Of a stretch of 64,000 nucleotides of DNA, positions 21,341 through 64,000 are shown piece by piece. A program made the translations under genes and the position numbers. Source of the DNA: an uncultured Actinomycetota bacterium (lineage in GTDB: Bacteria > Actinomycetota > Actinomycetes > Actinomycetales > Micrococcaceae); assembly GCA_963810895.1 (NCBI GenBank), contig CAWEPM010000020.1:34785-98784 (forward strand). The letters are read 5' to 3'. The notes under the pieces were generated by a model. The model had not been told where the DNA came from. It saw only the letters and a program-made list of their open reading frames with translations, and did not search any database. Each line of letters begins with the position of its first letter. The stretch's first letter is position 1.

Positions 21341-22617
21341 GCACCGTCATCGAGGAACTCCTGGCAGGCACAGCAACAGACAGCACGACGGCGGCCCCCG
21401 CCGCCGCCCTCGGGCCGGATTCCGAACCGGCCGGCACCCCGCTGCCGCTGGACGGCATCAAGATCGTCGACTTCACGCAGGTGTTCATGGGCCCGTCCTG
21501 CACCCAGCTCCTGGGCGACTACGGCGCGGACATCATCAAGGTGGAACGCCCGGGCGCCGGGGACATCTCCCGCAACTCGTTCCCGGACAAGGACGGCCAG
21601 GACAACCCGATCTTCCTGTCCATCAACCGGAACAAGCGCAGCATCTCCGTGGACACCCGCACCGACGAGGGCAAGGCCGTGCTCCGCCGGCTGCTGGCCG
21701 ACGCCGACGTGGTGGTCAGCAACTTCCGCTCCGGCGTCATGGAGCGGATGGGCTTCGGCTACGAGGACCTCAAGGAGCAGAACCCGGGCATCATCTGGGC
21801 CTCCGGCACGGGCTTCGGCCCCGAGGGCCCCTACTCGCACAAGGGCGGCCAGGACGCGATCGCCCAGGCCTACTCCGGCGTCATGTGGCGGCGCGAGTCG
21901 GACGACATGAAGCCCTCCATCTACCCCACCACGCTCTGCGACTACATCACCGGCATGCACCTCATGCAGGGCATCCTGCTGGCACTGCGCACCCGGGAAT
22001 CCGCCGGCGTCGGGCAGAAGGTGGAGGTGACGATGTACGACTCCATGCTGCACCTGCAGATGCAGGAGGCGTGCATGCAGCTCAACCGCGGCTACGAGGT
22101 CAACTGGGGCGCCATGCCGCTCAGCGGCGTCTTTGAAACCACCGACGGCGCCGTCTGCATGGTGGGCGGCTTCACCCCGGACCCGCTGGCCCGCATCTCC
22201 GAGGCGCTGGGCCTGGACGAGGACCTCACGCAGCGCCCCGAGTTCGCCACCCTCGAGCAGCAGTTCCAGCACAAGCCGGCACTGCAGGCGATCTTCCGCG
22301 AGCGCATCGCCACCAACACCACCGAGTACTGGACCGGCCGGCTGGAGGACAAGGGACTGCTCAACGCCCCCGTGCACACCCTGGAACAGACCCTCGCCGA
22401 CGCGCAGACCGCAGCCAACGGCATGATTGTCGAGGCCGAACACCCCGGCGTCGGCACCGTGAAAATGCTCAACGCGCCCATCCGGCTCTCCGCCACCCCG
22501 CCCACCATCCGCCGGGTGGCCCCGCGGCTCGGCGAACACAACGTCGAGGTCCTGCTGGAGAACGGGTTCGACGCCGAGACCATCGAGCGCCTGCAGCAGC
22601 TGGGGGTGCTCCGGTGA
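21337..22617 (+). CDS. CoA-transferase family III (CaiB/BaiF)
   Basis: 426 aa with the characteristic region KIVDFTQVFMGPSCTQLLGDYGADIIKVERP. Its start overlaps the previous gene's stop (ATGA). Confidence 0.85.
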   Translation: MSTVIEELLAGTATDSTTAAPAAALGPDSEPAGTPLPLDGIKIVDFTQVFMGPSCTQLLGDYGADIIKVERPGAGDISRNSFPDKDGQDNPIFLSINRNKRSISVDTRTDEGKAVLRRLLADADVVVSNFRSGVMERMGFGYEDLKEQNPGIIWASGTGFGPEGPYSHKGGQDAIAQAYSGVMWRRESDDMKPSIYPTTLCDYITGMHLMQGILLALRTRESAGVGQKVEVTMYDSMLHLQMQEACMQLNRGYEVNWGAMPLSGVFETTDGAVCMVGGFTPDPLARISEALGLDEDLTQRPEFATLEQQFQHKPALQAIFRERIATNTTEYWTGRLEDKGLLNAPVHTLEQTLADAQTAANGMIVEAEHPGVGTVKMLNAPIRLSATPPTIRRVAPRLGEHNVEVLLENGFDAETIERLQQLGVLR

Positions 22618-43485: not shown

Positions 43486-43608
43486 GATGTTCCGGCGGTG
43501 ACCTACTCTCCCACACCCTCCCGGGTGCAGTACCATCGGCGCTGTGGGTCTTAGCTTCCGGGTTCGGAATGGGACCGGGCGTTTCCCCCACGCTATGACC
43601 GCCGTAAC
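43486..43608 (-). rRNA. rrf: 5S ribosomal RNA
   Basis: Reverse complement reads GTTACGGCGGTCATAGCGTGGGGGAAACGCCCGGTCCCATTCCGAACCCGGAAGCTAAGACCCACAGCGCCGATGGTACTGCACCCGGGAGGGTGTGGGAGAGTAGGTCACCGCCGGAACATC. Confidence 0.9.
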
Positions 43609-43837
43609 CCTTGCTCCTCCACCCTGCCGGTTGCCGGGGGTGGGGAAATCTTGTGGTTACAACATGCCTGCACCGGTGTTCTGGTGCAGTTGTGGTGTTG
43701 TGTATTTAGTTGTCGGTTCCTTGCAACGTGCCCGTGACGGGTTTGTTGGTTGGGAACCACATAGTGGACGCAAGCAGTCTTGTTTCTTTGTACCCTTCCC
43801 CTGGTGTGAACGTCTTTTGAATCCGTTCACGGGAAGG

Positions 43838-46980
<3,143 letters not shown>

Positions 46981-47499
46981 AGGAGTAATTCACGAGAGAA
47001 CCATGAAAACCACCACCACCACCCCAAAGGAGCAACAGCGACAGATCCAGGTTCATATTCTTGGAAATTGCTTCTTATAAAAGATGCTCGCGTCCACTAT
47101 GTAGTTCTCAAACAACAACCCCGTACCACACACCCCACACACCAGCCCCCGCAAAGGGACCAACCGTGTGATCGGTGCAGCCAGGAAACCAGAAACAGCC
47201 GTCCCACACCACGCACCACGCACCCTCCCCGAAGGAAGAGCAACGCGGCCGCGCCGTGGTCCTGTTGTCTCAGGACCCAACAGTGTGCCAAACACTAAAC
47301 CGCTGATCACCTCTCCCGCACCGTTCCAGGACACTCTCAAGAGAGCATCCGTACTGGGTGCCGGTGAAGAACCGGCGGCCGCTATTTGTTGATATTCCAC
47401 CCGTGAGCACCCGCCGCAGAACAAGCGTCTGCGCAACGGGCGTACTCCTGACAACCCCTCCACACCCGCATACACGGGGCAGGGTGATTGTGAGGTGCT

Positions 47500-49034
<1,535 letters not shown>

Positions 49035-49601: not shown

Positions 49602-50886
49602 CTACCTGTCCTCCAGCAGCGCCTGCACCTCGAGCAGGAACTTCAGGCCGCCGTCGGTCAGTTCCTTCTCCCTGAGAAGGAAGCGCGGGGCGGGGACCGT
49701 GAGCTGGAGGCAGTCCAGGGACTGGCGCACGGTGCGGTCGATGTCCCACGCCCACTGCTCCGGAATCGGGTCGCCGGAGCGGTTGACGAAGCCGGAGGCC
49801 TCGAGCGCACTGAGAATGACCTCGCCGCGCAGGGTGTAGGACGGGGCAAGTCCCTGGACCAGCCAGTGCGCCGCAAGCCTGGTCATGAGCTTCACGGCGT
49901 CGTTCTCCGGGGCTCCGATCGTCCGCACCATGAAGTCCCAGAGTTCGTCGGGTTCGTCCAGGCCGATTTTGCCCATCGGACCGAGCACCATCCTGCCGTT
50001 GCGCTTGCGCAGCAGCTTCCAGTCCAGCAGGTGCAGGCGGAGGTTGAGCACGTCCTTGGCGTTGAGTTCGCGGTTGCCTTTGCCCATGATTTCGTCGTGC
50101 CAGCCGAGCTCATCCAGCGTGCGCCGGACCATCGCCGGCTTCAGGTAGCCATCCTTCGTCAGCTCCAGCCCCTCCCCCGCCGAGTTTTCCAGGAACCACA
50201 TGATGGGTCGGAGTACGGCGTCCCGCTCGGCCGGGGTGACGGGCCGCGGCCACAGCTGCAGGCTGAGCCGCCCAAGCCTCCGGTTGACGGCGTCAAGGTC
50301 GAAGGCGCCGACGTCGAACTCCCCGGCGCGTTCACCGGTGACCTCCGAATACCAGGTGGCGGCGTCGTAAAACTCCGGGTGTTTCTCGTCCGCGAGGACC
50401 TCCGCCAGCCGCCGGTAGCCGCCCGGACCGCCGGAGTCCTCCACGGGACCGCGGTTGGCACCCTCCACACACGTGATGGTCCCCTCCGGGACCATTGCGG
50501 GACCCACCAGCTCGACCTTGTGCGTCCAGGAGTCGCCAAAGTCGTATTCGTACTCAAAGTCAGCGGGTCCGGCCCCCTGAGCGTCGATCAGTTCAAAGAG
50601 GACGACGCCGGAAGCCGGCTCCGCGTCGACGTCCTCGGCCGCTTCGTCGGGGCCAACGATCACGCGCGGCTCGCCGTTGCGGTCGAGGCACCGGATGCCG
50701 TAGAGGTGGCGGTCCTGCCACCCGAAGGCGCACTGGATGGCGTCGTGGAACTGCGGCACGGTGATTGTTTCCGGCAGGAGGAGACGCCGCCAAATCTCGG
50801 GCTCGGTGCCCGCGATGCTGATGCGCAGGTCAAAGGCAGGGACTGTGCTGGGGAGGGCCGGACCCGCTGGGTGCATGCTGGTCATT
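49602..50886 (-). CDS. plasmid pRiA4b ORF-3-like family protein
   Basis: N-terminal region IWRRLLLPETITVPQFHDAIQCAFGWQDRHLYGI matches the PRiA4_ORF3 signature. Start chosen at MTSMHPAG; the ORF's 5' extension overlaps the rrn leader. Confidence 0.6.
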
Positions 50887-51157
50887 GTGCCAGAGCCGCG
50901 GCGGCCCATCCCGGATTCGGGCCCGGATGCAAGGCGACGTCGATATCTTGACTGGGCAAACAACCCCTGTCCCGGCCGCGCCCGAGCGACTAACATGCAG
51001 CAGTACCGGTGTGGTTGCCGCCGGTGTTGCTGTTTACTGCTGGACTTCACGGGAACGCCGTCCGAGCGCCGTTCCCTTTCGTGATGACCGGGCTGGTTGA
51101 GGTCTGGACGGTCGGACCTCGATTAAGCACAGGCGGGTTAAGGCTTGAGGAGGACGT

Positions 51158-52347
51158 GATGTCGAATTTCCTCTTCGCCACGCTCGACGCCGGCGGCAAC
51201 CTTTCCCCGGCCCTGGGCATCGGCCGCGAGCTGCTGCGGCAAGGACACCGGGTCCGCTTCCTCGGGCACGCCCGGCAGGCGGCGGAGGTGGAGGCCGCCG
51301 GCGCCGAATTCGTCCCGTACCGCCATGCGGCCCCGCTGGATCCGGCCGTTGCCGCTCCGGCGCACCGGCAGTTCGCGGCCATGCTGAACGTGTTCAGCGA
51401 CGCCGGCATCGGCCGGGACCTCGTGGAGGAGGCACGGCGCGAGCCGCCCGACGTCGTCGTCGTCGATTGCCTGCTCCTGGGCGCGATCGATGCCGCCGCG
51501 AAGGCCGGGCTGCCGCAGGTGGTCTTGGTGCACAGCTTCTTCGCGTACTTCGACGGCCCGTTCCGGCATGGTCCCATGGGCGCCGCGCTCTCGCTCAAGG
51601 GGCTGCCGCCGCGCCGCGTGATGGGGCGGGCGGAACGGGTTTTGGTCTGCGCGGACCCGTTGCTGGATCCGGCCGGCTCCTGGGACAGCGTCTCCTGGGA
51701 TAGCGACCCGGACAGGGTGGTGTGGTCCGGGGCCGTGGTGGATGACGTCGTCCCGGCTCGAGCTACCGCCGGCTCCGGGCTCCCGGCGCCGGACTCGCCG
51801 GCGACTCGGCGCGGCCGCCGGGCCGCCGCCGCGGGTCCTGGCGAGCCTGAGCACCACGGCGTTTCCCGGGCAGCAGGAGGTGCTGCAGAAGATCCTGGAC
51901 GCGGCGTCCGGATTGCCTGTGGAACTGGTCGTGACCACGGGCGCGGTGGATCCGGCGAGCCTGTCCGCGCCGGCGAACGCCTCGGTGCACCGCTACGTGG
52001 ACCACAACCAGATCATGCCGGGCTGCAGCGCGGTCATCAGCCACGGCGGGCACTCCACCTCCATGCGCGCGCTGGCCCACGGCCTGCCGGTCATGGTCCT
52101 GCCGATGCACCCCATGATGGACCAGCACATGGTCGGCAAGGCCATCAGCAATGCGGGGGCCGGCGTGCTCCTGAACCGCAAGTCGTCGCCGGATCAGATC
52201 GGCGCCGCCCTCACGGCCCTCCTGGCGTCGGAGAGCCAGCGCAAGGCCGCAGCGTACATCGGCGCCCGCCTCCGCAAGGCCGACGGCGCCCGGGCAGGTG
52301 CTCAGGTTCTCGCCGACCTTGCCGGTCTCGCCAGCCTGGCCGGGTGA
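51158..52347 (+). CDS. GT1-family (MGT/UDP-glycosyltransferase-like) glycosyltransferase, frameshifted near 51800
   Basis: N-terminal half MSNFLFATLDAGGNLSPALGIGRELLRQGHRV... and the C-terminal UDPGT-like part (ORF 51742-52347, HGGHSTSMRALAHGLPVMVLP..DQ) lie in different frames. Confidence 0.7.
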
Positions 52348-52452
52348 GCTTGCCGCAGCCTCTGTCCCGGCGTCGGCCGCAGGACTAAGATTCCAGCTGC
52401 ACCGATGGGATTGCCACCGTGCGGAAACCGTTGCGTGGAAGGACATCTGTCA

Positions 52453-52799
52453 TGGAATGCATAACGTGGTTCGCGCCGATCCTGCCCGGGAAACTGGAGG
52501 CGTGGAAAGCACTGGGCGCCGAGATGACCGGGGCTCGCGCCGCAGACCACAAACGCTCGCGCGAGCGCATGGGCATGACGCGGGAGGTCGCCAGCCTCGT
52601 GCAGACGCCGCAAGGGGACTTCGTCTGCCTGTACCACGAGGCCGAGGACCTGACCAAGGCGTTCCAGTCCCTCGCGACCTCGGACGATCCCTATGACGTG
52701 TGGTTCCGCGAGCAACTCGTGGACCTTCACGGCCTGACGCAGGAGATGCTGCAGGGCCCTCCCCCGGCCCAGCTGATGTTCGACTACAAGGCAGGCTGA
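52453..52799 (+). CDS. hypothetical small protein (115 aa)
   Basis: Clean ORF with ATG at 52453. No recognisable motif. Confidence 0.4.
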
Positions 52800-52824
52800 T
52801 CGGCGGCCGGCGCTCTGAGCGCCT

Positions 52825-52990
52825 ATCAGTTCGACAGTACGACGCCGGAGGCCGGCTCCGCGTCAACTGTCATCACCCGCCTCGTCGGGGCCAACGATCA
52901 CGCGCGGCTCGCCGCTGCGGCTGAGGCTCGGCATGCCGTCGAGGCGGAAGTCCTCCCAGGGCCAGCCGATGACCGCCTCAGGAACGTCCA
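52825..52990 (-). pseudogene. truncated fragment of a PRiA4_ORF3-like paralog
   Basis: About 150 nt show roughly 75% identity to 50590-50735 inside the intact gene (shared ...GEPRVIVGPDEA... coding segment). Both the N- and C-terminal parts of the gene are absent. Confidence 0.5.
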
Positions 52991-53040
52991 GCCTCTTACC
53001 CGGTGACCGAAGCGTTGCTACGGTTTTTACGGAGGCTGGC

Positions 53041-53307
53041 ATGACAACAATTCCGCACCGCGAACTTCGCAATCAGAGCAGCAAAATTCTTGAGCGGGTG
53101 AAGAACGGCGAAACCATTGAGGTGACAAACAACGGGGAAGTCGCCGCCGTTCTCATCCCACCGTCCTCTTCCCCGTTCGAGCGGCTGCTTTTGGCAGGAC
53201 AGATCCGGCCGGCCTCTGCGGAGGCCGTTGATTTTCAGTCCCTGCCGCGGGTCAGTTCAGCGACCATGACCGCGGAGATCCTGGCCGATGTTCGCGGGGA
53301 CCGTTGA
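53041..53307 (+). CDS. Phd/YefM-family type II antitoxin
   Basis: 88 aa, MTTIPHRELRNQSSKILERVKNGETIEVTNNGEVAAVLIP, a canonical Phd/YefM N-terminus, with GGAGG RBS upstream. Confidence 0.8.
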   Translation: MTTIPHRELRNQSSKILERVKNGETIEVTNNGEVAAVLIPPSSSPFERLLLAGQIRPASAEAVDFQSLPRVSSATMTAEILADVRGDR

Positions 53308-53384
53308 TCCTCTACGTGGACACGTCGGCGGCCAAGGGGCACCGGGGTTACTCCGCCGGATGTCTGTGGTCGAATGTACTTTAG
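53304..53384 (+). pseudogene. remnant of PIN-domain (VapC-like) toxin gene, 26 codons then stop
   Basis: TTG overlapping the antitoxin stop (cgTTGAtcc) opens LILYVDTSAAKGHRGYSAGCLWSNVL*. LILYVDTSA is the classic VapC N-terminus carrying the first catalytic Asp; the rest of the gene is missing. Confidence 0.45.
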
Positions 53385-53479
53385 GACCAACGGCAAGGCA
53401 CGCTCACCCCTTACCAGAGAACGCTGAACGAAAGCACGCCGCACAAGAGCATCACGCAAGAAATCACCGCAGGGACACG

Positions 53480-54923
53480 ATGGACTACTACGCAATCAAT
53501 GCACTGCGTGAGAACCACGCAGGCTGGTCGCTCCTGCGCGCGCAGAATGCTCCGCTCGCCGTCTCCTTCTTCATCAAGGCCTTCACCGGGCCCAACCAGC
53601 GGGACATCGGCCGCCAGGAACTCATCGACCACCTTGACGACGTCCTGTTCGGGCTCCGGGATGCATATGGTGAGGACAAGTTCCCGCGCCCGGCCGCCGA
53701 ATACCTGGACGACTGGGCCGCGCCCGAGCGGGCCTGGCTCCGCAAATACTACGTGCCCGGCCAGGACGAGCCCCGTTACGATCTCACCGCCGCGTCAGAA
53801 GATGTGGTGCGCTGGGTGGAGAGCCTGCGTGGCCGCGACTTCGTGGCCACCCAGTCACGGCTGACCAGCATCTTCGCCGTACTCAAGGCCCTGGTCCAGC
53901 AGTCCGAAACGGACCCGGAAGTCCGGCTCGCCGAGCTCCAGCGCCAGCGCGACGGGATCGACGCCGAAATGCAGCGGATCCGGGACGGCCACGTCAAGGT
54001 GATGAGCGGCCCCGAAGCCCTGGACCACTTCCAGCAGCTCACCACCCTGGCCAAGGACCTGCTGGCGGACTTCCGCGAAGTCGAACAGAACTTCCGCAAG
54101 CTGGACCGGCAGGTCCGTGAACAGATCGCCACGTGGGACGGCACCCAGGGCGAGCTGCTGGCCTCGATTTTCGCCAACCAGCAGGACATCAGCGGCTCAC
54201 TGCAGGGCCGCACGTTCCAAGGGCTTCTGGGACTACCTCATGTCCCCGCAGCTTCGCACCGAACTGCGGGACCTGCTCCAGCGGGCCACCCAGGTCGAGG
54301 CTCTGGCGAAGCTGGACAACCTCCAGGCCGTGACCAACCTCCACCAGGACTGGCTGCCCGCCGTCGAGCAGACCCAGGCGACGGTGCGCCAGCTGTCGCA
54401 GCAGATGCGCCGCCTCCTCGACGACAAGGTCTTCCTGGAGAACAAGCGGATCATGCAGCTGGTGCGGAGCATCGAAGCCGGCGCCCTCGCAACACGCAAC
54501 GAAACGCCGCCCGGCGTCTTCATGGAGATCGCGGCCCAGTCCGTCGACGTCGCGCTCCCTTTCGAACGTCCCCTGTATGAGCCCAGCCGGCGGACGATGG
54601 TGGACGACGTCGTCACCACCGCCGACGACGCCGAAGTGGACGCCGGCGCCCTCTTCAGCCAATTCCACGTGGACACCGAGCGGCTGAAGTCCAACATCGA
54701 GGACGTCCTCGCCGGAGCCGAACAGGCCACGCTGGGCGACGTCACCGATGCCCACCCGATCTCCCAGGGGCTCGCCGAGATCGTGGCCTACTTCCAGCTG
54801 GCCACCGAATCGGACTGGGCCGCCATCAACCCGGACCAGGCCCAGCACTTGTCCTGGCAGCTCCAGGACGGCAGCACCCGGGAAGCCACAGTCGACCAGA
54901 TCATCTTCGTGAGGCCAGCATGA
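53480..54923 (+). CDS. jetA: Wadjet JetA / MksF-like kleisin-type subunit (DUF3375 family), one frameshift near 54225
   Basis: N-terminus MDYYAINALRENHAGWSLLRAQNAPLAVSFFIKAF... and downstream RLAELQRQRDGIDAEMQRIRDG...FREVEQNFRKLDRQVRE match the DUF3375 pattern. The C-terminal part continues in ORF 54117-54923 after a GGG-run shift. Confidence 0.75.
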
Positions 54924-55007
54924 ACCCCGCCGACCCCCGAAACGCACGCACCGGAAACGCACGCGCCCGAGGAGCTTCCCGGCGTCGTCACCAAGCTGTT
55001 CAAGGGC

Positions 55008-55550
55008 GTGGTCTACGCCGAGTCGGATGAGAAGGCCTGGCAGTCGCTGCTGGGCTTGTCCTCCCACGTCCGCGACTACGTGGCCGTCCTGGGCCTGGAC
55101 CTGATCCTCGACGAGTCCGAAGGCTACGCGTTCCTGAAGTCGCGCGAGGACCCGGACGGCACCCTGCCGCGGCTGATCCCCCGCCGCCCGCTCACCTTCA
55201 ACGTCAGCCTCCTTCTGGCCCTGCTGCGCGGCCGGATGCTCGAATTCGACACGAACAGCAGCGAGCTCCGCCTCATCATGACCGAGCAGGACATCGCGGA
55301 CATGGTCGCCGTCTTCCTGCCCGAGTCCAGCAACGAGGCGAGGATCCTGGATCAGCTCGCCACCGAACATCAAGAAAGTGGTGGAACTCGGCTTCCTCCG
55401 GAAACTGCGCGGCCAGACCGGCACCTACGAGGTCGCCCGCATCCTCAAGGCCTACGTCGATGCCCAATGGCTGGAGGAATTCGACGCGCGGCTGGCAGAT
55501 TACCGGCAGTCCCTCACCGGAGCCGGGCCGACGGAAGCGAGCCACCCATG
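55008..55550 (+). CDS. jetB: Wadjet JetB / MksE-like subunit (DUF4194 family), one frameshift near 55375
   Basis: VVYAESDEKAWQSLLGLSSHVRDYVAVLGLDLILDESEGYAFLK...RLIPRRPLTFNVSLLLALLR and, after the shift, FLRKLRGQTGTYEVARILKAYVDAQWLEEFDARLADYR. Start may instead be the ATG at 54919 overlapping the jetA stop. Confidence 0.7.
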
Positions 55551-58500
55551 ACCACCGAACTCATGAACAGCGGGACTGACAGACCAGCAGGACACGCTTT
55601 TCAGCCTGGATGAAAAAGCGGACGACGCCGGCACTCCCCCGGGCTTTCGGCTGCACCGCCTGGAGCTGCTCAATTGGGGCACCTTCCACCAGGAGGTCCG
55701 GACCTTCCGGCTGGACGGATCCAACAGCCTGCTGACCGGCGACATCGGCTCCGGCAAGTCCACCGTGGTGGATGCCATCACCACGCTGCTGCTGCCGGCC
55801 AACAGGATCGAGTACAACAAGGCCGCGGGCGCGCAGAAGAAGGAACGCACCCTGATGTCCTATGTGCGGGGGTTCCATAAGAGCACCCGCAGCACGGGCG
55901 GTGAGTACTCCAAGCCGGTGGCACTGCGCGGAACGGGCAAACTCACGGTGGTGCTCGGCGTCTTCCACAACGCCGTCCTGGGCAAGTCCGTCACCCTGGC
56001 CATCACCCTGTGGGCCACCCAGGAGGCAGGGCAGCCGAACCGTTTCTATTCGCTCATGGAGGCCGAGCAGTCCATCGCCGCGGACTTCGCCAACTTCGGC
56101 CAGGACCCTGCGAAGCTGAAGAAGCAGCTCCGGGCTGCCGGCGCGTCCGTCCATGACACTTTCGAGCCGTACGCGGCGGCGTTCAAGCGGCAGTTCGGTA
56201 TCAGCGGCAACCAGGCCATGGAGCTCTTCCACCGCACGGTGTCCATGAAGCAGGTGGAGAACATCACCAACTTCGTGCGCACCAACATGCTCGAAGAGGA
56301 CGACGTCCAGGCCCGGATCGGCAACCTCATCCACCACTTCGACGACCTCAAGAAGGCCCACGACGCCGTCCTCCGCGCCAAGGACCAGATCGCCCTGCTG
56401 ACCCCCATCACCCAGAGCGCCGCCCAGCATGCCGGCCTGAGCACCGAGGACGAATTCGCGCGCCGGCAGCGGGACCAGCTGCACCCGTGGTTCACCGGAC
56501 AAAAACTGCAGCTCAGCCTCGAGCACCAGACGGAACTGCACAGCACCGGAACCCGGCTGCAGGAGGACGCCGGCGAAGCTGGCCGCCGAGATCACCCAGC
56601 TGCGCCTCGACCTCGCCGCCGTCAAGGACGATATCCGCAGCAACGGCGGCGGACGTCTGGCATCCATCGAGGCCGAGGCTGCGCGGCTGGGCGAGGAATC
56701 GCGGCAGCAGCGGGCCCGGTTCGAAAAATACGCCGAAGCCGCCGCGGATCTGGGCCTGCAGGCCCCGGCCGACCGGGTCCTCTTCGACGCCAACCGGGCG
56801 CGGCTCGCCGAGGTCGAACAGGACCTCGCCACCCAGGCCGACGGGCTGCAGGACCGCCGCACCGAGCTGACCATGACGCGCACAGCGCTCACCGGCCGCG
56901 CCGACGACATCGCCGCGGAGCTGACCAGCCTGCAGTCCCGCCCCAATCTCCTGCCGCGCCCGCAGCTCGAGCTCCGCCGCCGGTTGTGCGACGGGACCGG
57001 CATCCGGGAGTCGGAGCTGCCGTACGCCGGCGAGCTGCTGCGGGTCCGTGACGGCGAAGGGGCGTGGGAGGGCGCCGCCGAACGCACGCTGCGCGGCTTT
57101 GCCCTGTCGCTGCTGGTGCCGGCGGAACACTATGCCGCCGTGAGCGGCTGGGTGGACGGTAACAACCTGCGCGGCCGGCTGGTGTACCTGAAGATCGGCG
57201 AATCCCACGCGCCAAGGCCGGCGGAGGCCGGGACCCTGGCCGCGAAAATTGCCATCAAGCAGGGCACGCCGTTCCGCGACTTCCTGCTCGATGAACTCGG
57301 CAGCCGCTTCGACTATTTCTGCTGCGACACCCTGGAGGACTTCCGCCGCCGTTCCAAGGCGCTCACCGCCAACGGGCAGCTCAAGGGCGGGCGCGGACGG
57401 CACGAGAAGGACGACCGCCAGGACCTGTCGGACCGCCGCAACTATGTCCTGGGCTGGGACAACCACGACAAAATCAGCCGCTTCCGCGCCGAGCACGACG
57501 ACGTCCAGGGCGAGCTCAGCGTCGTCGCAGGCCAGCTGGCCCGGGTCAACGAATCCCTGGGCGCCATTGGCCGGCAGAACCGGCAGCTGGGCATCATCGG
57601 CTCGGTGCCGGACTTCGCCGAGATCAGCTGGCAGCTCACCGCACGCCGGATCGAGGACCTCAACCAGGAGAAGCGCCAGCTGGAGTCCACCAGCGATGTG
57701 CTGCGGCAACTGACGGCCAAAGAGGCCGAGGTCTCCGGACGGCTGACGCGCCTCGAGACCCGGGCGGACGACATCCAGCGCCGGATCGGGTCCAACGAGA
57801 ACGCCGCCAAGGACATCGCCGAGGCGATCGCGGACTGCCGCGACGTCCTGCAGGCTGCGCCGTTGACGGACGACGCCGGCGTGCTGGCCGCCGTCGCCCG
57901 GCTTGCCGGCGCGGAACTCGCCGGGAAGCCGCTCACCTACAAGAACACCGGAACCGTGGAAAGCGCGGTCCGCTCCGGGCTGACGGACACCATCGACGCC
58001 CTGGCCAAGCAGATCGCCCGCGCGGCCGAGAAGACCGTCCGGCTCATGGCCGAATTCCGCAACAAATACCCGAACGAGACCACGGAGATCGACGCCGCCC
58101 TGGAGTCGGCCGGGGACTTCGGCAAGCTGCTCGAGGAGCTCGTCAGCAACGATCTCCCCCGTTTTGAGGCGCACTTCAAGGAGTCCCTGAACCAGAACAC
58201 CATCCACGAGGTGGTGGCGTTCAACGCGTTCCTGGACAGCCGCAGGCAGGACATCGCGAACCGCATCGGCGAAATCAACCTCTCCCTGGCCGGGATCGAG
58301 TACAACTCCGGCCGGCATATCCAGCTGGAGCACCAGAACAGCACAGACCTGGACGTGCGCCAGTTCGGGATAGACCTGCGGGCCTGTTCGGAGGGGACCA
58401 TCGGGGACGATGACCAGTACTCCGAGCAGAAGTACCTGCAGGTCGCGCGGCTGATCGAACGGTTCCGCGGCCGCGACGGCTTCACCGCCCTCGATGAACG

Positions 58501-58966
58501 CTGGACCGCCAAGGTCACGGACGTGCGCAACTGGTTCACCTTCTCCGCCTCGGAGAAATGGACCGAGACCGGCGAAGAGTTCGAGCACTTCACCGACTCC
58601 GGCGGCAAGTCCGGCGGCCAGAAAGAGAAGCTTGCCTACACCATTCTCGCCGCCGCCCTGGCGTTCCAGTTCGGGCTCGCGTCCGGAAAGGGCGCAGGCC
58701 GGAACGCCGGCAGCGGGCGCAGTTTCCGCTTCGTGGTGATCGACGAGGCGTTCGGCCGCGGCTCCGATGAGTCCGCGCGGTACGGTCTGGAACTGTTCCA
58801 GCGGATGAAGCTCCAGCTGCTGATCGTCACTCCCCTGCAGAAGATCCATGTGATCGAGCCGTTCGTGGCCCACGTGGGCTTCGTGGCCAACACCAACGGC
58901 AATGATTCCCAGCTGCGGAACATGACCATCCAGGAGTACCGGGCGGAGAGGGACCGCCGTGCCTAA
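55548..58966 (+). CDS. jetC: Wadjet JetC / MksB-like SMC-family ATPase (about 1140 aa), two frameshifts (near 55570 and near 56578)
   Basis: ATG overlaps the jetB stop (ccATGAcc). N-terminal FRLHRLELLNWGTFH and Walker A GDIGSGKST, a long coiled-coil middle, and C-terminal Walker B/D-loop FRFVVIDEAFGRGSDES...LQLLIVTPLQK. Confidence 0.8.
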
Positions 58967-60410
58967 GCGGCGTCCCGAGGGCCCCGAACCGAGCTTGCGA
59001 GGTTTGGGAAGGGACCTCCGCGCTGAGCCGTCAGCCGGAAAGGCCCAGGGCTGGACCACGCTGGCAATGCTGCGGGCGCAGTCACTGAAGGCATGGGAGA
59101 GCGGGGAGCTGCTGCGCGAACTCCTGGCACCGGGCGGCCTGAATACCGGCGGCCTGTATCCGCGGCGCCGCACGTTGAAGCGTCCGACGGCGGCCACCCT
59201 CCGGACGGACTATGCAGCAGCCCATGCGTGGGCCAGCGAGCTGTTCGCGGCGGCAGGGCCCTTCAGCCTGGAGACGGCCGACGTGGGCCGCACCACCATC
59301 GGCTCGAACCGGCTTCCCGCTGCGGCGGTGTTCGCGGCCGTCGAGGACGAGATTTCCTTTGTGGGCAAGACCCGTGACGCGGCACGATTCCGGGATCTTG
59401 CCGACGGGCTGGCGGCGCTGGATCCGGCGCTGACCCGGTGGGCGCTGCAAACGTCCGCTGCAGCTGCTGAACCTGGGTGCAGCGGCGCTGACGGCCGGGC
59501 GGGTGGCCCTCTGGCTCCGCGACAATCCAGCGCCGGGCATCTACGTCCGGCAGCTGAGCATGCCCGGGGTCCACACGAAATTCCTGGAGACGAACCGGCG
59601 GGTCATCGATGAGATGGCCAGCTGCGGTGCAGCCCGGCGTGGCTTTGAACGATGTTTCTACCGAGGACGTGCCTCCGGACGGCTTGCCGGAGGCCCAGCG
59701 AAGTGCCGGACCAACCGGCCGAAGTCCTTGGCACCGCGGCGGCCCGGACTCCGGCGGCGCGCTTCGCCGAGCGCCACGGCTTCATCCATCCGCCAGAACT
59801 GGTGCGGCTGCGGTTGCTGGACCCGGAGATCCCGCTGCTTGGCAGCGCGCGGGACATCACCGTCACGGCCGACGCTTTCAGCACGTTGCGGCTGCCGGTC
59901 CACACGGTGATCGTCACCGAAAACCTCGTGAATTTTCTCGCCCTGCCGGACCGGCCCGGCACCGTGGCGCTTTTTGGTGCAGGCTACGGGTTTTCCGCGC
60001 TGCGGGACGCCGCCTGGCTGCGTGAATGTGAAGTCCTGTATTGGGGCGATCTGGACACCCACGGATTCCGGATCCTGGACCAGTTGCGGGCTGCCCATCC
60101 CCACGTGGTGAGTGTGCTGATGGACCAGTCCACGCTGCTGGCCCATCGCGATGCCTGGGGCACCGAAACGGCCCCGGTCCGGGCGGCCCTGACACGGCTG
60201 ACGCCAGAGGAGTCCATGCTGTATACCGCGCTGGCCAACGGAGACTTTGGCCCGGCCGTGCGGCTGGAGCAGGAACTGATCGACTGGGACTGGGCGTGTG
60301 AGCGGCTCCTGCCGGGCGCTTCTGGGCGACGGCGTCTGGGCAGCGCGGCTCAGGGAAGGACGGCTGAGGCAGCCCGATCGGGGCGCCATATGAAGAAGGT
60401 GTCCATTTAG
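58959..60410 (+). CDS. jetD: Wadjet JetD / MksG-like subunit with C-terminal Toprim-like domain, two compensating frameshifts (near 59455 and near 59640)
   Basis: GTG overlaps the jetC stop (GTGCCTAA). C-terminal TVIVTENLVNFLALP (Toprim Glu) and VLYWGDLDTHGFRILDQL (DxD) are present, and the middle segment reads in frame +1 (ALWLRDNPAPGIYVRQLSMPGVHTKFLETN). Confidence 0.75.
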
Positions 60411-60874
60411 CGCGCCGGAATCCCCTCCACGAAGGGCACCTGGGTCGCATATTGCTGATAGAGCTTGACCGCTTCGTCGATCTCAATATGGCCGAAGTTC
60501 AACGCGACCTGCAGCCCCTCCAGCTGGGCGCCGCAGGTCTCGGCCGCGCTCACCCGGTCCGCCAGCGAATGGGACGTGGCAAAATTCGTGGCCAGCGCCG
60601 CGGCAACGGAACAGATCACCGCCAGCAGGCACAGCCCGCGCCACACAATCGAGTCGTCGCTCAGGTTGAAGAGGTCGGCCACCGCGCTGGTGAACCCCGT
60701 GCCCCCGACGGCCGGACCGGCTGTGAACGCCGCGGCCAGCGCGCTGCCCACGATGCTGATGTTGGCCAGCCGGGTGCGTCGGGGGCGCTCCTTGCCGAGA
60801 TAGGAGCGGATGGCCTGCTGTTTCTCGTCGATGCGGGTGGACAGCCTTTGCCGCGTATCGGATGTTTCGTCCAT
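60407..60874 (-). CDS. hypothetical 2-TM membrane protein (155 aa), convergent with and overlapping the jetD stop
   Basis: Charged N-terminus, two hydrophobic helices (ANISIVGSALAAAFTAGPAVGG; LCLLAVICSVAAALATNFA), and an about 60-aa C-terminal helical tail. RBS-like GAGGGAAG sits upstream of the ATG. Confidence 0.45.
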   Translation of the reverse strand: MDETSDTRQRLSTRIDEKQQAIRSYLGKERPRRTRLANISIVGSALAAAFTAGPAVGGTGFTSAVADLFNLSDDSIVWRGLCLLAVICSVAAALATNFATSHSLADRVSAAETCGAQLEGLQVALNFGHIEIDEAVKLYQQYATQVPFVEGIPAR

Positions 60875-61252
60875 GATCTGGTACCAGCTTCCCTCGCCGA
60901 TCGTGTCCGCACGCCTGGAAAGTGGGGCCCGCCTGCCAGCGGCCCGCCGGCTTCCCCGGATTCCTCCAGCCGGGGCGAAAGCTCCCCGCCCCGTTGCCGC
61001 TCTCCTCCCGAAACGCGCACACGTTTAGGATGCTCCCGCGCCGCTGCGGGTGTCTAGACGGACACTCAAGACGGCCGGTGGCGACTCCCGGCCCCGGTCG
61101 CCGGTGGTGACCGCCGACGTCGGCCCTGCACACCGCCGGGGTACCGGCGCCTTCCGCCGGGCGGCACTCCAAAGAACAACATGACGACGGGCACGACCCC
61201 CACCTCCGGCGCTGGAGATGGGGGCCGTGCCCGTGCGGATACTGTCGTGCGG

Positions 61253-61983: not shown

Positions 61984-62203
61984 CGGCCACTTGTCAGGAC
62001 AGTCCGCCGGGCGGACACCAGCACGACGGCGGGAGTCCGGCAGCGTTGCCGGCCTCCCGCCGTCGTGCAGGACTCGAGCCGTTTCCTCGGGTGGAGTGCG
62101 GATTGGATGCCTCCGGTTTCCGCGGCGGCTTTCTGCAGCCGCCGGGTAAGCAAGCCTGCGAAGCCCCTGCGCCGCCGCCACTCCCCCGGCGTAGCATGAC
62201 TCA

Positions 62204-64000
62204 TATGGCCGACACATGGATTCGGCTCCTCGGTCCGCCCAGGATCGAGTCCGCTGGCACCGCACTCCGGCAGCCCCGGGGCCGCAAGGCCTGGGCTGTG
62301 CTGGCCTACCTCGCGCTGCAACCGGACGGCACCGGCCGGGCCCGGACGGCCGCCCTCCTGTTCCCCGACGCCGAGGACCCCCTCGGCGCCCTGCGCTGGA
62401 ACCTCTCCGAGCTGCGGCGGACCCTCGGCGCGGAATCGGTCGGCGGCGACCCGCTGCGGCTCGTGCTGCCGGCCGGGTGGCACTGCGATGTGCTGGCGGC
62501 CCTGCACCCCGCCGGCGACGCCGACCCCCGCGCCTTCGACGGCCAGCTCCTGGAGGGCCTGTCCTTCGCGGACTGCCCCGTGTTCGAGTCGTGGCTGGAG
62601 GACCAGCGGCACCGGCTCGAGAACTGCGTGCTGGCGCTGCTCTACGAGGCGTCGCTCGGCGCGCTGTCGGCGGGAAGGGCGGACGACGCCGTCGACCTCG
62701 CCACCCGCGCGCTGCGCCTGGACCCCTTCAACGCCGACTGCCACGCCGCGCTGATCAAGGCCCTGCTCTCCCTGGGCGAGTACCGGCGGGCGCGGGAGCA
62801 GGCCGACAAGTGCCGGGACCTCTACCGCCGGGAGCTCGGGCTCGGCCTGCCCGCGGAGGTGCGCCGGGCCCTGGTGGACGCGGACCCCGTGGCCGAGCCC
62901 GGGATGCCGGCCAGTGCGGCCACGGTGCGGTCCTACCTCGACGCCGCCGGGGCGTCGCTCTCGGCGGGCTCGGTGGACCGCGGGCTGGAGCAGCTGCGGC
63001 TCGCCGTCGGGCTCGCCCAACGGACCGATGATCATCATCTGCTCGCCGAATCCCTGGTCACGCTGTCCGGGGCGCATGATCCATCAGGCCGGCGGCCGCG
63101 GTGCCGAGGTGGCCGATCTCCTGCACCGCGCGCTGTCCGCGGAAGGGCCCGACGGCGTCTCCCGGACTGCCGCCACCGCCTTCCGCGAGCTCGGCTATCT
63201 GTCCGTCCAGCGCGGCGTTCCGGACCGCGCGGCCGGCTGGCTGGACCGGGCGATGCGCGCGGCCCAGGGAATCCCGGACGAGCAGGCACGGATCCTGGCG
63301 ATCCAGGGCATGCTGGCCTCGGACACCGCGCACTATGGGGACGCGGTGACGGCCTTCACCGAATCCGGGAGACTGGCCCGGGAGGTCGGGAACCGGCGGC
63401 AACAGGCGTTCAGCGAGGCCCTGCTGGGACGCGTGCATCTGCTGCGCGGGGACCTGGAGCTGGCGGCCGCCTGCCTGGACCGGGCCCGGGACTGGGTCGC
63501 GGGGGAACACTGGACGGCGTTCGAGCCGTTTGTCGCCGGAGTCCGGGGCGAAATCTACCTTGCCGCGGGCCGGCTGGACGCGGCGGCGGACCTGATTGAC
63601 CGGTCCTGGGTCATGGCCGAGCTCGCCGGCGACCACTGCTACATGGCCCTGGCGGCAGGCGCCGAAGCCCGGCTGTTCCTGGCGCACGGCGACCTCGCCG
63701 CCGCCGAACACTGGATCAACCGGGGCCTGGAACCCACGCCGTGGTACCTCTGGTACTCGGCCCGGCTGCTCGATGCCGCGGCGGAAGTCGCCATCGCCAC
63801 CGGATCGCCGCGTGCTGCCGAGTTCGTGGAGCGTCTGGCCGCGCTGGCCAGCCGGAGCGGCATGCGGGAGTTCGTGGTCCGGGCGCAGTCGCATCGGGCG
63901 GTCCTCGGCGACGAGGCCGCCGCCCAGACCGTGCCGTGGCTGGCCAGGGAGATCGACAACCCCGCGCTGACCGCGTTCCTGGACCGGCGCCACGGCGTCT
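62204..64000 (+). CDS. SARP/AfsR-family regulator (OmpR-type wHTH + BTAD + TPR-like), partial at window end, frameshift near 63075
   Basis: N-terminus MADTWIRLLGPPRIE...ALRQPRGRKAWAVLAYLAL (winged helix) is followed by the BTAD region (CHAALIKALLSLGEYRRAREQADKCRDLYRRELGLGLPAEV). A helical repeat region continues to position 64000 in another frame. Confidence 0.7.

What the first reader, a model, noticed from the sequence alone, without database searches (positions are those of the whole stretch)
53041..53384. Orphan Phd/YefM antitoxin followed by a 26-codon stub of a VapC-like PIN toxin, directly upstream of jetA
The antitoxin ORF is intact and has a good RBS. The downstream overlapping reading frame starts with TTG and reads LILYVDTSAAKG (classic PIN/VapC N-terminus with the first catalytic Asp) but stops after 26 codons. 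About 95 nt later jetA begins. This looks like a deletion or insertion scar: either the Wadjet cassette inserted into, or recombined next to, a phd-vapC module, leaving an antitoxin-only remnant. Intact antitoxins without toxin can act as anti-addiction elements or be co-opted as regulators, so whether this one still does anything, and whether it controls the jet promoter region between 53385 and 53480, is open.
Basis: seen in the sequence. Interest (0 to 1): 0.6.

Follow-up and report, generated by a model that had tools for sequence, protein, structure and literature searches.

The report
Toxin-deleted antitoxin gene beside Wadjet
A small toxin-antitoxin gene pair that normally sits just upstream of the Wadjet anti-plasmid operon in Arthrobacter-type bacteria has lost its toxin here through one clean 381-base deletion; this is ordinary gene decay, but the recurring pairing of this module with Wadjet appears undescribed in the papers I searched.

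Summary
Window 53041-53307 encodes an intact 88-aa Phd/YefM-type (VapB-like) antitoxin. A 26-codon ORF (53304-53384) overlaps its stop codon. jetA starts at 53480.

Only the first 10 codons of the stub come from vapC. A near-identical metagenome contig (L084) carries the intact 132-aa vapC in the same locus. The window, L001 and L002 differ from it by a single 381-bp deletion with a 2-nt CC microhomology. The deletion removes vapC codons 11-132, the stop codon and about 10 nt of spacer. The last 16 stub codons are the former vapC-jetA spacer, read across a conserved jet promoter-like element (TACTTT, 53377-53382).

Wadjet did not insert into the module. phd-vapC immediately next to jetABCD is the common arrangement: 26 of 80 species-level loci have Wadjet within 10 kb (20 directly adjacent), as do 4 of 6 loci sampled from JetA.

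The toxin is dead, keeping 1 of 4 catalytic acids. Phd looks maintained: no amino-acid change in residues 1-58. Its near-invariant operator-like repeat is mutated in the window. No such repeat lies near jetA, so control of jet by Phd is unsupported.

This is ordinary toxin-antitoxin decay. The specific toxin-antitoxin/Wadjet linkage is the more interesting by-product.

The parts
53015..53035 (+). Operator/promoter-like direct repeat plus Shine-Dalgarno upstream of phd. It is degenerate here: TTGCTACGGTTTTTACGGAGG.
   Evidence: The canonical form TGCTACGnTTGCTACGGAGG is exact in 57 of 78 genome loci, and GCTACnnTTGCTAC is present in 69 of 78. It persists even in Actinomyces loci whose Phd is 45% identical, and nothing further upstream is conserved. 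The window and L002 carry three changes (A>G in the spacer, GC>TT in the proximal repeat). L001 and L084 are canonical. It is the only hit in the window outside chance level. Function as an operator is inferred.
53041..53307 (+). phd (vapB-type) antitoxin gene, intact, 88 aa
   Evidence: PF02604 at 40.4 bits against a cut-off of 29.8. N-terminal similarity to M. tuberculosis VapB46 (6jqy) and to 3dbo chain A. 326 homologues were found, the best 120 listed at 75-97% identity, mostly Arthrobacter, Pseudarthrobacter and Paenarthrobacter. Residues 1-58 are identical in the four closest alleles, with only synonymous changes there.
53304..53333 (+). vapC remnant: TTG start plus the first 10 codons (LILYVDTSAA), keeping only catalytic Asp6
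   Evidence: Identical over 30 of 30 nt to the intact vapC of L084. The four acidic residues conserved in at least 97% of 75 aligned family members are D6, E46, D92 and D111. The stub gives no Pfam hit.
53332..53333 (.). Deletion junction (CC microhomology). 381 bp are missing relative to L084.
   Evidence: Alignment A4, columns 344-724, are absent in the window, L001 and L002 and present in L084.
53334..53384 (+). Tail of the stub ORF: former vapC-jetA spacer read in the vapC frame, ending at TAG 53382-53384
   Evidence: Identical to the L084 spacer that follows its vapC stop codon.
53346..53390 (+). Conserved jet upstream motif (ttactccgccggATGTCtgtggtcgaatgTACTTTagg). -10-like TAnnnT at 53377-53382.
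   Evidence: T, A and T of TAnnnT and the GTCnGnG core are invariant in alignment A3. The motif lies upstream of jetA in arrangements A, B and C and at Wadjet loci with no toxin-antitoxin module. Promoter function is inferred; the sigma-70 consensus scan found nothing.
53480..54923 (+). jetA (DUF3375), type I Wadjet. One apparent frameshift near 54220.
   Evidence: Pfam DUF3375 matches in two frames. PADLOC JetA1 for the L002 orthologue. The frameshift is a 1-nt homopolymer insertion absent from the 98%-identical L002.
54942..60410 (+). jetB, jetC and jetD (the first JetB match starts at 54942; jetC about 55573-58966; jetD about 58959-60410), with apparent single-base frameshifts
   Evidence: tblastn with the L078 JetB/C/D proteins gives 92-96% identity for JetB and JetC. 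There are frame changes at about 55365 and 56577. The PADLOC JetB1/C1/D1 assignment was made on the L078 orthologues.

Best explanation
This is a toxin-deleted (delta-vapC) allele of a chromosomal phd(vapB)-vapC toxin-antitoxin module that, in this group of Micrococcaceae, sits immediately upstream of a type I Wadjet operon (jetABCD).

Shown: a single 381-bp deletion between a 2-nt CC microhomology removed VapC codons 11-132, its stop codon and about 10 nt of spacer. The first 10 vapC codons are now fused to the vapC-jetA spacer, where the frame runs 16 more codons across the jet upstream motif to a TAG. The remnant keeps one of the four PIN catalytic acids, so it cannot be a nuclease. Wadjet was already there and kept its own upstream motif.

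Inferred: Phd is still made, because its start codon, RBS and coupled overlap are intact. It still folds as a DNA-binding dimer, since its N-terminal half shows only synonymous change. With its co-repressor toxin gone, and in the window and L002 with the proximal repeat mutated, autorepression is probably weaker. No terminator separates phd from jetA, so phd transcripts probably read through and add modestly to jet transcription. The main consequence is loss of VapC toxicity and addiction. I see no evidence that Phd has gained a new role.
For: The pre-deletion allele L084 has the same neighbours (DUF6176-phd-vapC-jetABCD-155 aa ORF). It aligns base for base on both sides of a 381-bp gap. The same junction occurs in three assemblies.

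vapC is intact (125-138 aa, 4-nt overlap with phd) in nearly all of the 80 species-level loci. phd-vapC lies directly upstream of jetA in 11 loci, with vapC intact in 10 of them, and directly downstream of jetD in 9. Four of six loci sampled from JetA also have it directly upstream.

The four acidic residues D6, E46, D92 and D111 are conserved in at least 97% of 75 aligned VapC sequences. The stub keeps only D6.

The jet upstream motif is conserved independently of the toxin-antitoxin module. There is no terminator-like site between phd and jetA on the + strand, and the region shows no significant RNA structure.

phd between two deletion alleles (window versus L001) shows 10.5 synonymous and 3.5 non-synonymous differences (ratio 0.12, binomial p = 5e-4). 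All amino-acid changes fall in residues 59-84.
Against: Expression, DNA binding and read-through are inferred, not measured.

Substitution density among the window, L001 and L002 is mosaic. Recombination with intact alleles could therefore mimic purifying selection on phd.

The L002 branch has 3 non-synonymous and 0 synonymous changes in the C-terminal part, and the repeat is mutated in the window and L002. Both hint at incipient decay rather than maintenance.

Only 64 kb of the genome is visible. A paralogous VapC that this Phd still neutralises cannot be excluded.

The assemblies are error-prone for indels, although a 381-bp gap shared by three of them is not that kind of error.
Confidence: 0.8

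Rival explanations
1. Wadjet insertion scar: the jetABCD cassette inserted into, or recombined into, vapC and truncated it.
For: Homology to vapC stops abruptly at 53333, and the jet-cassette motif begins about 12 nt later. The region is rearrangement-prone: jet lies on either side of the toxin-antitoxin module in different species.
Against: L084 has intact vapC followed by the same spacer and the same jetA. The window differs only by a 381-bp internal gap. Ten other species have intact vapC directly upstream of jetA.
Confidence: 0.02
2. Sequencing or assembly artefact: vapC is really intact, and the stub results from indel errors.
For: The window and its relatives carry many single-base frameshifts in jetA-D and in the glycosyltransferase gene. 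These are not shared between assemblies.
Against: Only 146 nt lie between the junction and jetA, so 122 codons cannot fit. The identical junction occurs in three independently assembled contigs from different samples.
Confidence: 0.02
3. Co-opted regulator: orphan Phd now binds and controls the jet promoter.
For: It lies close to jetA on the same strand. The N-terminal DNA-binding half is conserved. There were no substitutions between 53290 and 53385 among the three deletion alleles.
Against: The phd-upstream repeat has no copy in 53300-53480, even allowing 3 mismatches. The jet motif is the same at Wadjet loci without any toxin-antitoxin module (L085, L089) and in the intact allele L084. Nothing about the jet motif changed with the deletion.
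Confidence: 0.08
4. Anti-addiction or immunity element: the toxin-less Phd is kept because it neutralises related VapC toxins from incoming plasmids or phages, or from paralogous chromosomal modules. This would complement Wadjet's plasmid destruction by preventing post-segregational killing.
For: Excess of synonymous change in phd after the deletion. Chromosomal antitoxins acting as anti-addiction modules are an established concept (my own knowledge; reviewed in PMC7354431, listed).
Against: No Micrococcaceae plasmid in PLSDB and no phage in INPHARED encodes a close Phd homologue. The best hits are mycobacterial plasmids at 35-44% identity. No other vapC lies in the 64-kb window. The amino-acid changes fall in the C-terminal, toxin-binding part.
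Confidence: 0.12
5. Neutral relic: phd has no remaining function and simply has not yet decayed.
For: The repeat is mutated in the window and L002, while it is preserved in nearly all intact modules. L002 has three unique amino-acid changes and no synonymous ones. The deletion is polymorphic among very close relatives, since L084 is intact, so it may be young.
Against: Window versus L001 gives dN/dS of 0.12 (p = 5e-4), with no change in residues 1-58. Recombination could explain this.
Confidence: 0.3

Closest known systems
VapBC toxin-antitoxin modules with a Phd/YefM-fold VapB (M. tuberculosis VapB46 in PDB 6jqy; PDB 3dbo, which I recall as the VapBC-5 complex)
   Same: In orthologues and in the ancestor, an antitoxin with a Phd/YefM N-terminal domain is followed by a 4-nt-overlapping PIN-domain toxin that carries the D-E-D-D acidic quartet.
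   Different: Here the toxin is reduced to 10 codons. No solved structure matches the VapC by sequence. Identity to VapB46 is confined to about 40 N-terminal residues.
Orphan antitoxins and degenerate chromosomal toxin-antitoxin loci (for example the anti-addiction model for chromosomal ccd; orphan antitoxins surveyed in Klebsiella and E. coli, PMC7192599 and PMC10790755, listed)
   Same: An intact antitoxin without its toxin, produced by deletion and polymorphic within a population.
   Different: No cognate toxin on known mobile elements was found. The exact pre-deletion allele is available, so the event can be reconstructed to the base.
Type I Wadjet (JetABCD, also called MksBEFG or EptABCD), an SMC-family system that cleaves small circular DNA
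   Same: The jetA-B-C-D order and the PADLOC JetA1-D1 and Pfam domains match.
   Different: In this clade the operon is recurrently flanked, within 26-215 nt and on the same strand, by one specific phd-vapC family. I found no report of this in three targeted full-text searches.
Toxin-antitoxin modules that stabilise adjacent DNA or safeguard a defence system (superintegron toxin-antitoxin modules, mosAT of SXT, CreTA with CRISPR-Cas). This comparison rests on my own knowledge.
   Same: A toxin-antitoxin pair tightly linked to a dispensable defence locus. Loss alleles of either partner exist: delta-vapC here, and Wadjet loss in L006.
   Different: No functional dependence between Phd-VapC and Jet proteins has been shown. 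Unlike CreTA, the antitoxin is a protein with its own operator-like site.

Membership tests
Phd/YefM-type (VapB) antitoxin | Sequence match to the PhdYeFM_antitox domain above the curated cut-off | tested here: met
   PF02604, 40.4 bits against a cut-off of 29.8, residues 1-42. N-terminal match to VapB46 (6jqy, E = 4e-6) and to 3dbo chain A.
Phd/YefM-type (VapB) antitoxin | Encoded immediately upstream of, and translationally coupled to, a cognate toxin gene | tested here: not met
   In the window only a 10-codon toxin remnant follows. The feature is met in orthologues: vapC is intact in nearly all of the 80 species-level loci and in L084. By descent this is a member whose partner has been lost.
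Phd/YefM-type (VapB) antitoxin | Neutralises its toxin and autorepresses its operon by binding an operator | not testable with these tools
   There is only indirect evidence: a near-invariant direct repeat TGCTACGnTTGCTACG directly upstream of the RBS.
VapC / PIN-domain toxin | PIN domain fold (about 120-135 aa) recognised by PF01850 | tested here: not met
   The stub gives no Pfam hit. The C9C5 orthologue scores 34.5 bits against a cut-off of 23.6.
VapC / PIN-domain toxin | Four conserved acidic active-site residues | tested here: not met
   The family's conserved acidic residues are D6, E46, D92 and D111. The stub retains D6 only.
Type I Wadjet (JetABCD) | Four genes jetA (DUF3375), jetB (MukE-like), jetC (SMC/MukB-like ATPase) and jetD (Toprim/JetD_C), in that order | tested here: met
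   Pfam DUF3375. tblastn finds JetA-D in order in the window. PADLOC JetA1/B1/C1/D1 and JetD_C/DUF3322 were assigned on close orthologues.
Type I Wadjet (JetABCD) | Uninterrupted reading frames | tested here: inconclusive
   The window has one frame change each in jetA, jetB and jetC, and a split jetD. The jetA change is a 1-nt homopolymer insertion absent from the 98%-identical L002. It is probably an assembly error, but reads are needed to confirm.
Anti-addiction orphan antitoxin | Cognate or closely related toxin carried by mobile elements that enter the host | tested here: not met
   PLSDB gives only mycobacterial plasmids at 35-44% identity. INPHARED phages give no hit. This holds only for those collections.

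The most novel reading that the evidence does not exclude
The phd-vapC family is not a random neighbour but a dedicated partner of type I Wadjet in Micrococcaceae. It would act either as an addiction module that stabilises the costly Wadjet locus, or as a second-line abortive arm that is transcriptionally coupled to it. Natural delta-vapC alleles (this window, A. ipis, L090) and a Wadjet-loss allele (L006) would then be the escape routes.

Evidence not excluding this:
- Wadjet lies within 10 kb in 26 of 80 species-level phd-vapC loci. Twenty of these are directly adjacent on the same strand, on either side of the module. One further locus keeps a jetD remnant.
- Four of six loci sampled from JetA have the module directly upstream.
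- Flanking contexts are diverse.
- A second, 28%-identical Wadjet sub-lineage is also adjacent (L065).
- Neighbours of modules without Wadjet are mostly metabolic genes, not defence islands.
Probability: 0.25. Interest if true: 0.6.

Novelty: new member of a known kind. Interest (0 to 1): 0.35.

Why it matters
The finding itself is a textbook case of toxin loss from a chromosomal toxin-antitoxin module. Both the before and after alleles were recovered from natural samples, so the event is resolved to the base: 381 bp, with a CC microhomology. That makes it a clean natural control, not a discovery.

The value lies in the context it exposed. One specific phd-vapC family is tightly and recurrently linked to type I Wadjet across Arthrobacter, Pseudarthrobacter and relatives, in two permutations and with two Wadjet sub-lineages. 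Its other neighbourhoods are not defence islands.

If the linkage is functional (stabilisation, backup toxicity or shared transcription), it would be a previously undescribed accessory of an SMC-type anti-plasmid system. The natural delta-vapC strains would then be ready-made mutants for testing it.

Tried and rejected
- **Exact-sequence lookup of the window's Phd:** not on record.
- **Frameshift repair of the stub:** rejected. There is no room for the missing codons, and three assemblies share the junction.
- **Wadjet insertion into vapC:** rejected by L084 and by the ten species with intact vapC directly upstream of jetA.
- **Phd operator in the jet promoter:** the pattern search with up to 3 mismatches found only the phd-upstream site plus one chance-level hit at 21628.
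- **Terminator or structured RNA between phd and jetA:** no + strand terminator lies after the phd stop. The fold z-score was 0.94.
- **Rfam scan of the window:** only rRNAs.
- **Sigma-70 consensus promoter scan:** no hits. This is uninformative for high-GC actinobacteria.
- **Plasmid and phage homologues (anti-addiction idea):** only distant mycobacterial plasmid hits, and no phage hits.
- **PADLOC models for Phd or VapC:** none.
- **Solved structures for VapC by sequence:** none.
- **A second vapC or phd in the window:** none.
- **General defence-island hypothesis:** 104 flanking ORFs from 30 toxin-antitoxin loci without Wadjet gave about 9 PADLOC hits and mostly metabolic Pfam families. A generic hotspot is therefore not favoured.
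- **Lack of substitutions at 53290-53385 as evidence of constraint:** judged weak. Local divergence is only about 4-5% and is mosaic.
- **Literature:** no paper linking Wadjet with Phd or VapC was found.

Full report
**What is in the sequence.** Window 53041-53307 (+) is an 88-codon ORF with GGAGG 5 nt upstream of the ATG. It matches Pfam PhdYeFM_antitox at 40.4 bits against a cut-off of 29.8. Its N-terminal 40 residues resemble M. tuberculosis VapB46 (6jqy) and 3dbo chain A. A TTG at 53304 overlaps the phd stop by 4 nt and opens a 26-codon frame, LILYVDTSAAKGHRGYSAGCLWSNVL, ending at TAG 53382-53384. The locus is chromosomal: a complete rRNA operon lies at 43490-49032 on the minus strand.

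**Relatives of the antitoxin.** A protein search found 326 homologues. The best 120 listed are 75-97% identical, and those that carry a source name are almost all Arthrobacter, Pseudarthrobacter or Paenarthrobacter. A scan of one genome per species returned 80 loci.
- vapC is intact (125-138 aa, same 4-nt overlap) in nearly all of them. The exceptions are L067, L073, L076 and L080.
- The orthologous toxin is a PIN domain protein (PF01850, 34.5 bits).
- Across 75 aligned VapC sequences the conserved acidic residues are D6, E46, D92 and D111. The stub keeps only D6.

**The decisive comparison.** Two metagenome contigs (L001, L002) carry the same phd-stub-jetA junction as the window. A third contig, L084, was found through a 98%-identical JetA. 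It has the same neighbours as L001 (TetR ... DUF6176, phd, jetABCD, a 155-aa ORF, an 82-aa ORF, RibD_C), but with a full vapC between phd and jetA.

In alignment A4 the four sequences match on both sides of one gap. The window, L001 and L002 lack 381 bp (columns 344-724). The two bases CC are present at both edges. The deletion removes vapC codons 11-132, the TGA stop and about 10 nt of spacer. In window coordinates the left flank ends at 53331, the microhomology is 53332-53333, and the right flank starts at 53334.

So only codons 1-10 of the stub are VapC. Codons 11-26 are the old vapC-jetA spacer read in frame.

**Wadjet was already there.**
- blastn and tblastn of the 80 species-level loci show jetABCD within 10 kb of phd-vapC in 26 of them. 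One more (L006) keeps only the last 240 bp or so of jetD right after vapC.
- In 11 loci jetA starts 60-215 nt after the vapC end; vapC is intact in 10 of these and degraded in L076. I call this arrangement A. In 9 loci jetD ends 26-126 nt before phd (arrangement B). All are on the same strand.
- Six loci chosen from JetA hits without regard to the toxin-antitoxin module gave 4 with phd-PIN directly upstream (L084, L086, L087, L088) and 2 without (L085, L089).
- The window's arrangement is therefore the common one minus the toxin. It is not an insertion of Wadjet into a toxin-antitoxin module.

**The jet promoter region.** A motif of the form (A/T)TGTC-N11-12-TAnnnT lies 45-135 nt upstream of jetA in every arrangement, often preceded by CCTCCACAG. 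It is also present at Wadjet loci without the toxin-antitoxin module. In the window it is at 53346-53390, with the TAnnnT hexamer TACTTT at 53377-53382. That places it inside the 3' end of the stub ORF, whose TAG stop is part of the conserved TTAGG.

It is identical in the intact allele L084, so the deletion did not touch it. I infer that it is the Wadjet promoter or operator, and I predict a transcription start near 53389. A sigma-70 consensus scan found nothing, which is not informative for this phylum.

**Does Phd control jet?** Directly upstream of the phd RBS, nearly all loci carry TGCTACGnTTGCTACGGAGG. It is exact in 57 of 78 loci, and the core is present in 69 of 78. It is conserved even in Actinomyces loci whose Phd is 45% identical, while nothing further upstream is conserved. 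This is the obvious candidate for a Phd operator overlapping a TAnnnT (TACGAT). That role is inferred.

The window has only one copy of it, at 53016-53031, and none near jetA even with three mismatches. So there is no sequence support for Phd acting on the jet promoter.

There is also no terminator-like site between phd and jetA on the + strand, and no significant RNA structure. The deletion brings the phd promoter 381 bp closer to jet, so read-through is plausible but unmeasured.

**State of the orphan antitoxin.**
- Window and L001 both carry the deletion. Between them phd shows 10.5 synonymous and 3.5 non-synonymous differences (ratio 0.12, binomial p = 5e-4).
- Across the four closest alleles, residues 1-58 are identical and carry only synonymous changes. 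All amino-acid changes lie in residues 59-84, the presumed toxin-binding part.
- Signs of relaxation also exist. L002 has three unique amino-acid changes and no unique synonymous ones.
- In the window and L002 the proximal repeat TTGCTAC has become TTTTTAC. That repeat is otherwise lost only in L067, L074 and L080, two of which have damaged modules.
- Substitution density among the three deletion alleles is mosaic. Recombination with intact alleles may therefore inflate the apparent purifying selection.
- My reading is that Phd is still a working DNA-binding protein, with regulation beginning to drift.

**Anti-addiction idea.** tblastn of Phd against 72,556 plasmids found only mycobacterial plasmids at 35-44% identity. 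Against 50,697 phage records it found nothing. No other vapC or phd lies in the 64-kb window. The idea is not excluded, since unknown elements and the rest of the genome remain unsearched, but it has no positive support.

**Assembly quality.** The window has frame changes in jetA (about 54220), jetB (about 55365), jetC (about 56577), jetD and the upstream glycosyltransferase. The jetA change is a 1-nt insertion in a short homopolymer that is absent from the 98%-identical L002. L001 has many other frame changes of its own. These look like long-read indel errors, so Wadjet is probably intact.

**The by-product: a specific linkage between this module and Wadjet.**
- According to PMC10482375, 42% of Actinobacteria encode Wadjet. 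I used that figure with a genome of about 4.5 Mb, which is my own assumption. Random placement would then put Wadjet within 10 kb of a given gene in roughly 0.2% of genomes, or about 0.15 of 80. The observed number is 26. Shared ancestry inflates this count.
- Several observations argue that the linkage is more than one inherited accident:
  - Flanking DNA around the pair is diverse.
  - Arrangements A and B interleave on a JetA neighbour-joining tree. The tree has no support values.
  - A. subterraneus (L065) has a different type I Wadjet sub-lineage (JetA 28% identical, different PADLOC sub-models) that ends 52 nt before phd.
- It is not a generic defence island. 104 ORFs flanking 30 toxin-antitoxin loci without Wadjet are mostly metabolic, and only about 9 hit PADLOC models.
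- Independent toxin losses next to Wadjet also occur in A. ipis (L076) and in L090, where vapC homology stops at residue 90.
- Full-text searches found no report of this linkage.
- Whether the module stabilises the Wadjet locus, provides a backup toxic arm, or merely hitch-hikes is open.

**Verdict.** The feature is a delta-vapC allele created by one 381-bp microhomology deletion within a pre-existing phd-vapC-jetABCD arrangement. That is ordinary toxin-antitoxin decay, documented here with both alleles. Interest is modest, at 0.35. It rests mainly on the recurrent, specific module-Wadjet adjacency and on the natural toxin-less alleles that would let it be tested.

Noticed in passing
window 43490-49032 (-): A complete rRNA operon (5S, 23S, 16S) lies about 4 kb from the toxin-antitoxin/Wadjet block, so the locus is chromosomal.
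   Followed up: partly
window 51009-52388, ~54220, ~55365, ~56577, 58959-60410: The glycosyltransferase gene and jetA, jetB, jetC and jetD each appear split by single-base frame changes. The jetA change is a homopolymer insertion absent from the 98%-identical L002. L001 has many different ones. These are probably long-read assembly errors rather than pseudogenes.
   Followed up: partly
window 52826-52960 (-) versus 50566-50720 (-): A fragment of about 155 bp, 81-83% identical to part of the PRiA4_ORF3 gene (49602-51050), lies directly upstream of phd. It is also present in L001 and L002. In Arthrobacter sp. C9C5 the PRiA4-like gene directly abuts phd. This suggests the GT-DUF6176 segment was inserted or recombined in.
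   Followed up: partly
window 50965-61123; L001 7950-18085; L084: The roughly 10-kb block GT-DUF6176-phd-(vapC)-jetABCD-155 aa ORF sits in two different flanking contexts: PRiA4 plus rRNA in the window and L002, and TetR ... RibD_C in L001 and L084. The deletion allele occurs in both contexts.
   Followed up: partly
upstream of phd in about 80 loci; window 53015-53035: The 20-nt direct repeat plus Shine-Dalgarno, TGCTACGnTTGCTACGGAGG, is more conserved than the coding sequence. It is retained at 45% protein identity in Actinomyces, with a sharp loss of conservation immediately upstream.
   Followed up: partly
L076 10264-10713; L090 9264-9640; L080; L006 3310-3557; L052: Several other decay or rearrangement alleles exist. 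In A. ipis, vapC is reduced to a 33-aa ORF upstream of jetA. In L090, vapC homology ends at residue 90 and unrelated DNA, including an acyltransferase gene, precedes jetA. L080 has a phd-vapC fusion deletion. L006 keeps only the 3' end of jetD after vapC. L052 has a duplicated jetD-end/phd junction 5.3 kb apart.
   Followed up: partly
L065 1584-9949: Arthrobacter subterraneus has a divergent type I Wadjet (JetA 28% identical) ending 52 nt before phd. A PD-T4-6/mad6-like kinase gene lies upstream of its jetA.
   Followed up: partly
L089 15696-16022 (-); L087 16446-16700 (-): Other toxin genes sit right after jetD at Wadjet loci: PemK in L089, which lacks phd-vapC, and HicA in L087.
   Followed up: no
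L078 10656-10816 and upstream of phd in L012, L032, L046, L049, L075, L078, L086: A REP-like palindromic repeat (GGTTGAGCCTGTCGAAACC / CTCGACAGGCTCGATCACC) recurs in the spacers around the toxin-antitoxin module and jet.
   Followed up: no
window 62200-63600 (+): A SARP/BTAD-TPR-type regulator gene, also apparently frameshifted. Its orthologue lies upstream or downstream of phd-vapC in several species.
   Followed up: no
window 53405-53479: The window lineage has a longer jetA leader than other species, with about 50 extra nt between the conserved motif and the ATG. It has no Rfam match and no significant fold.
   Followed up: partly
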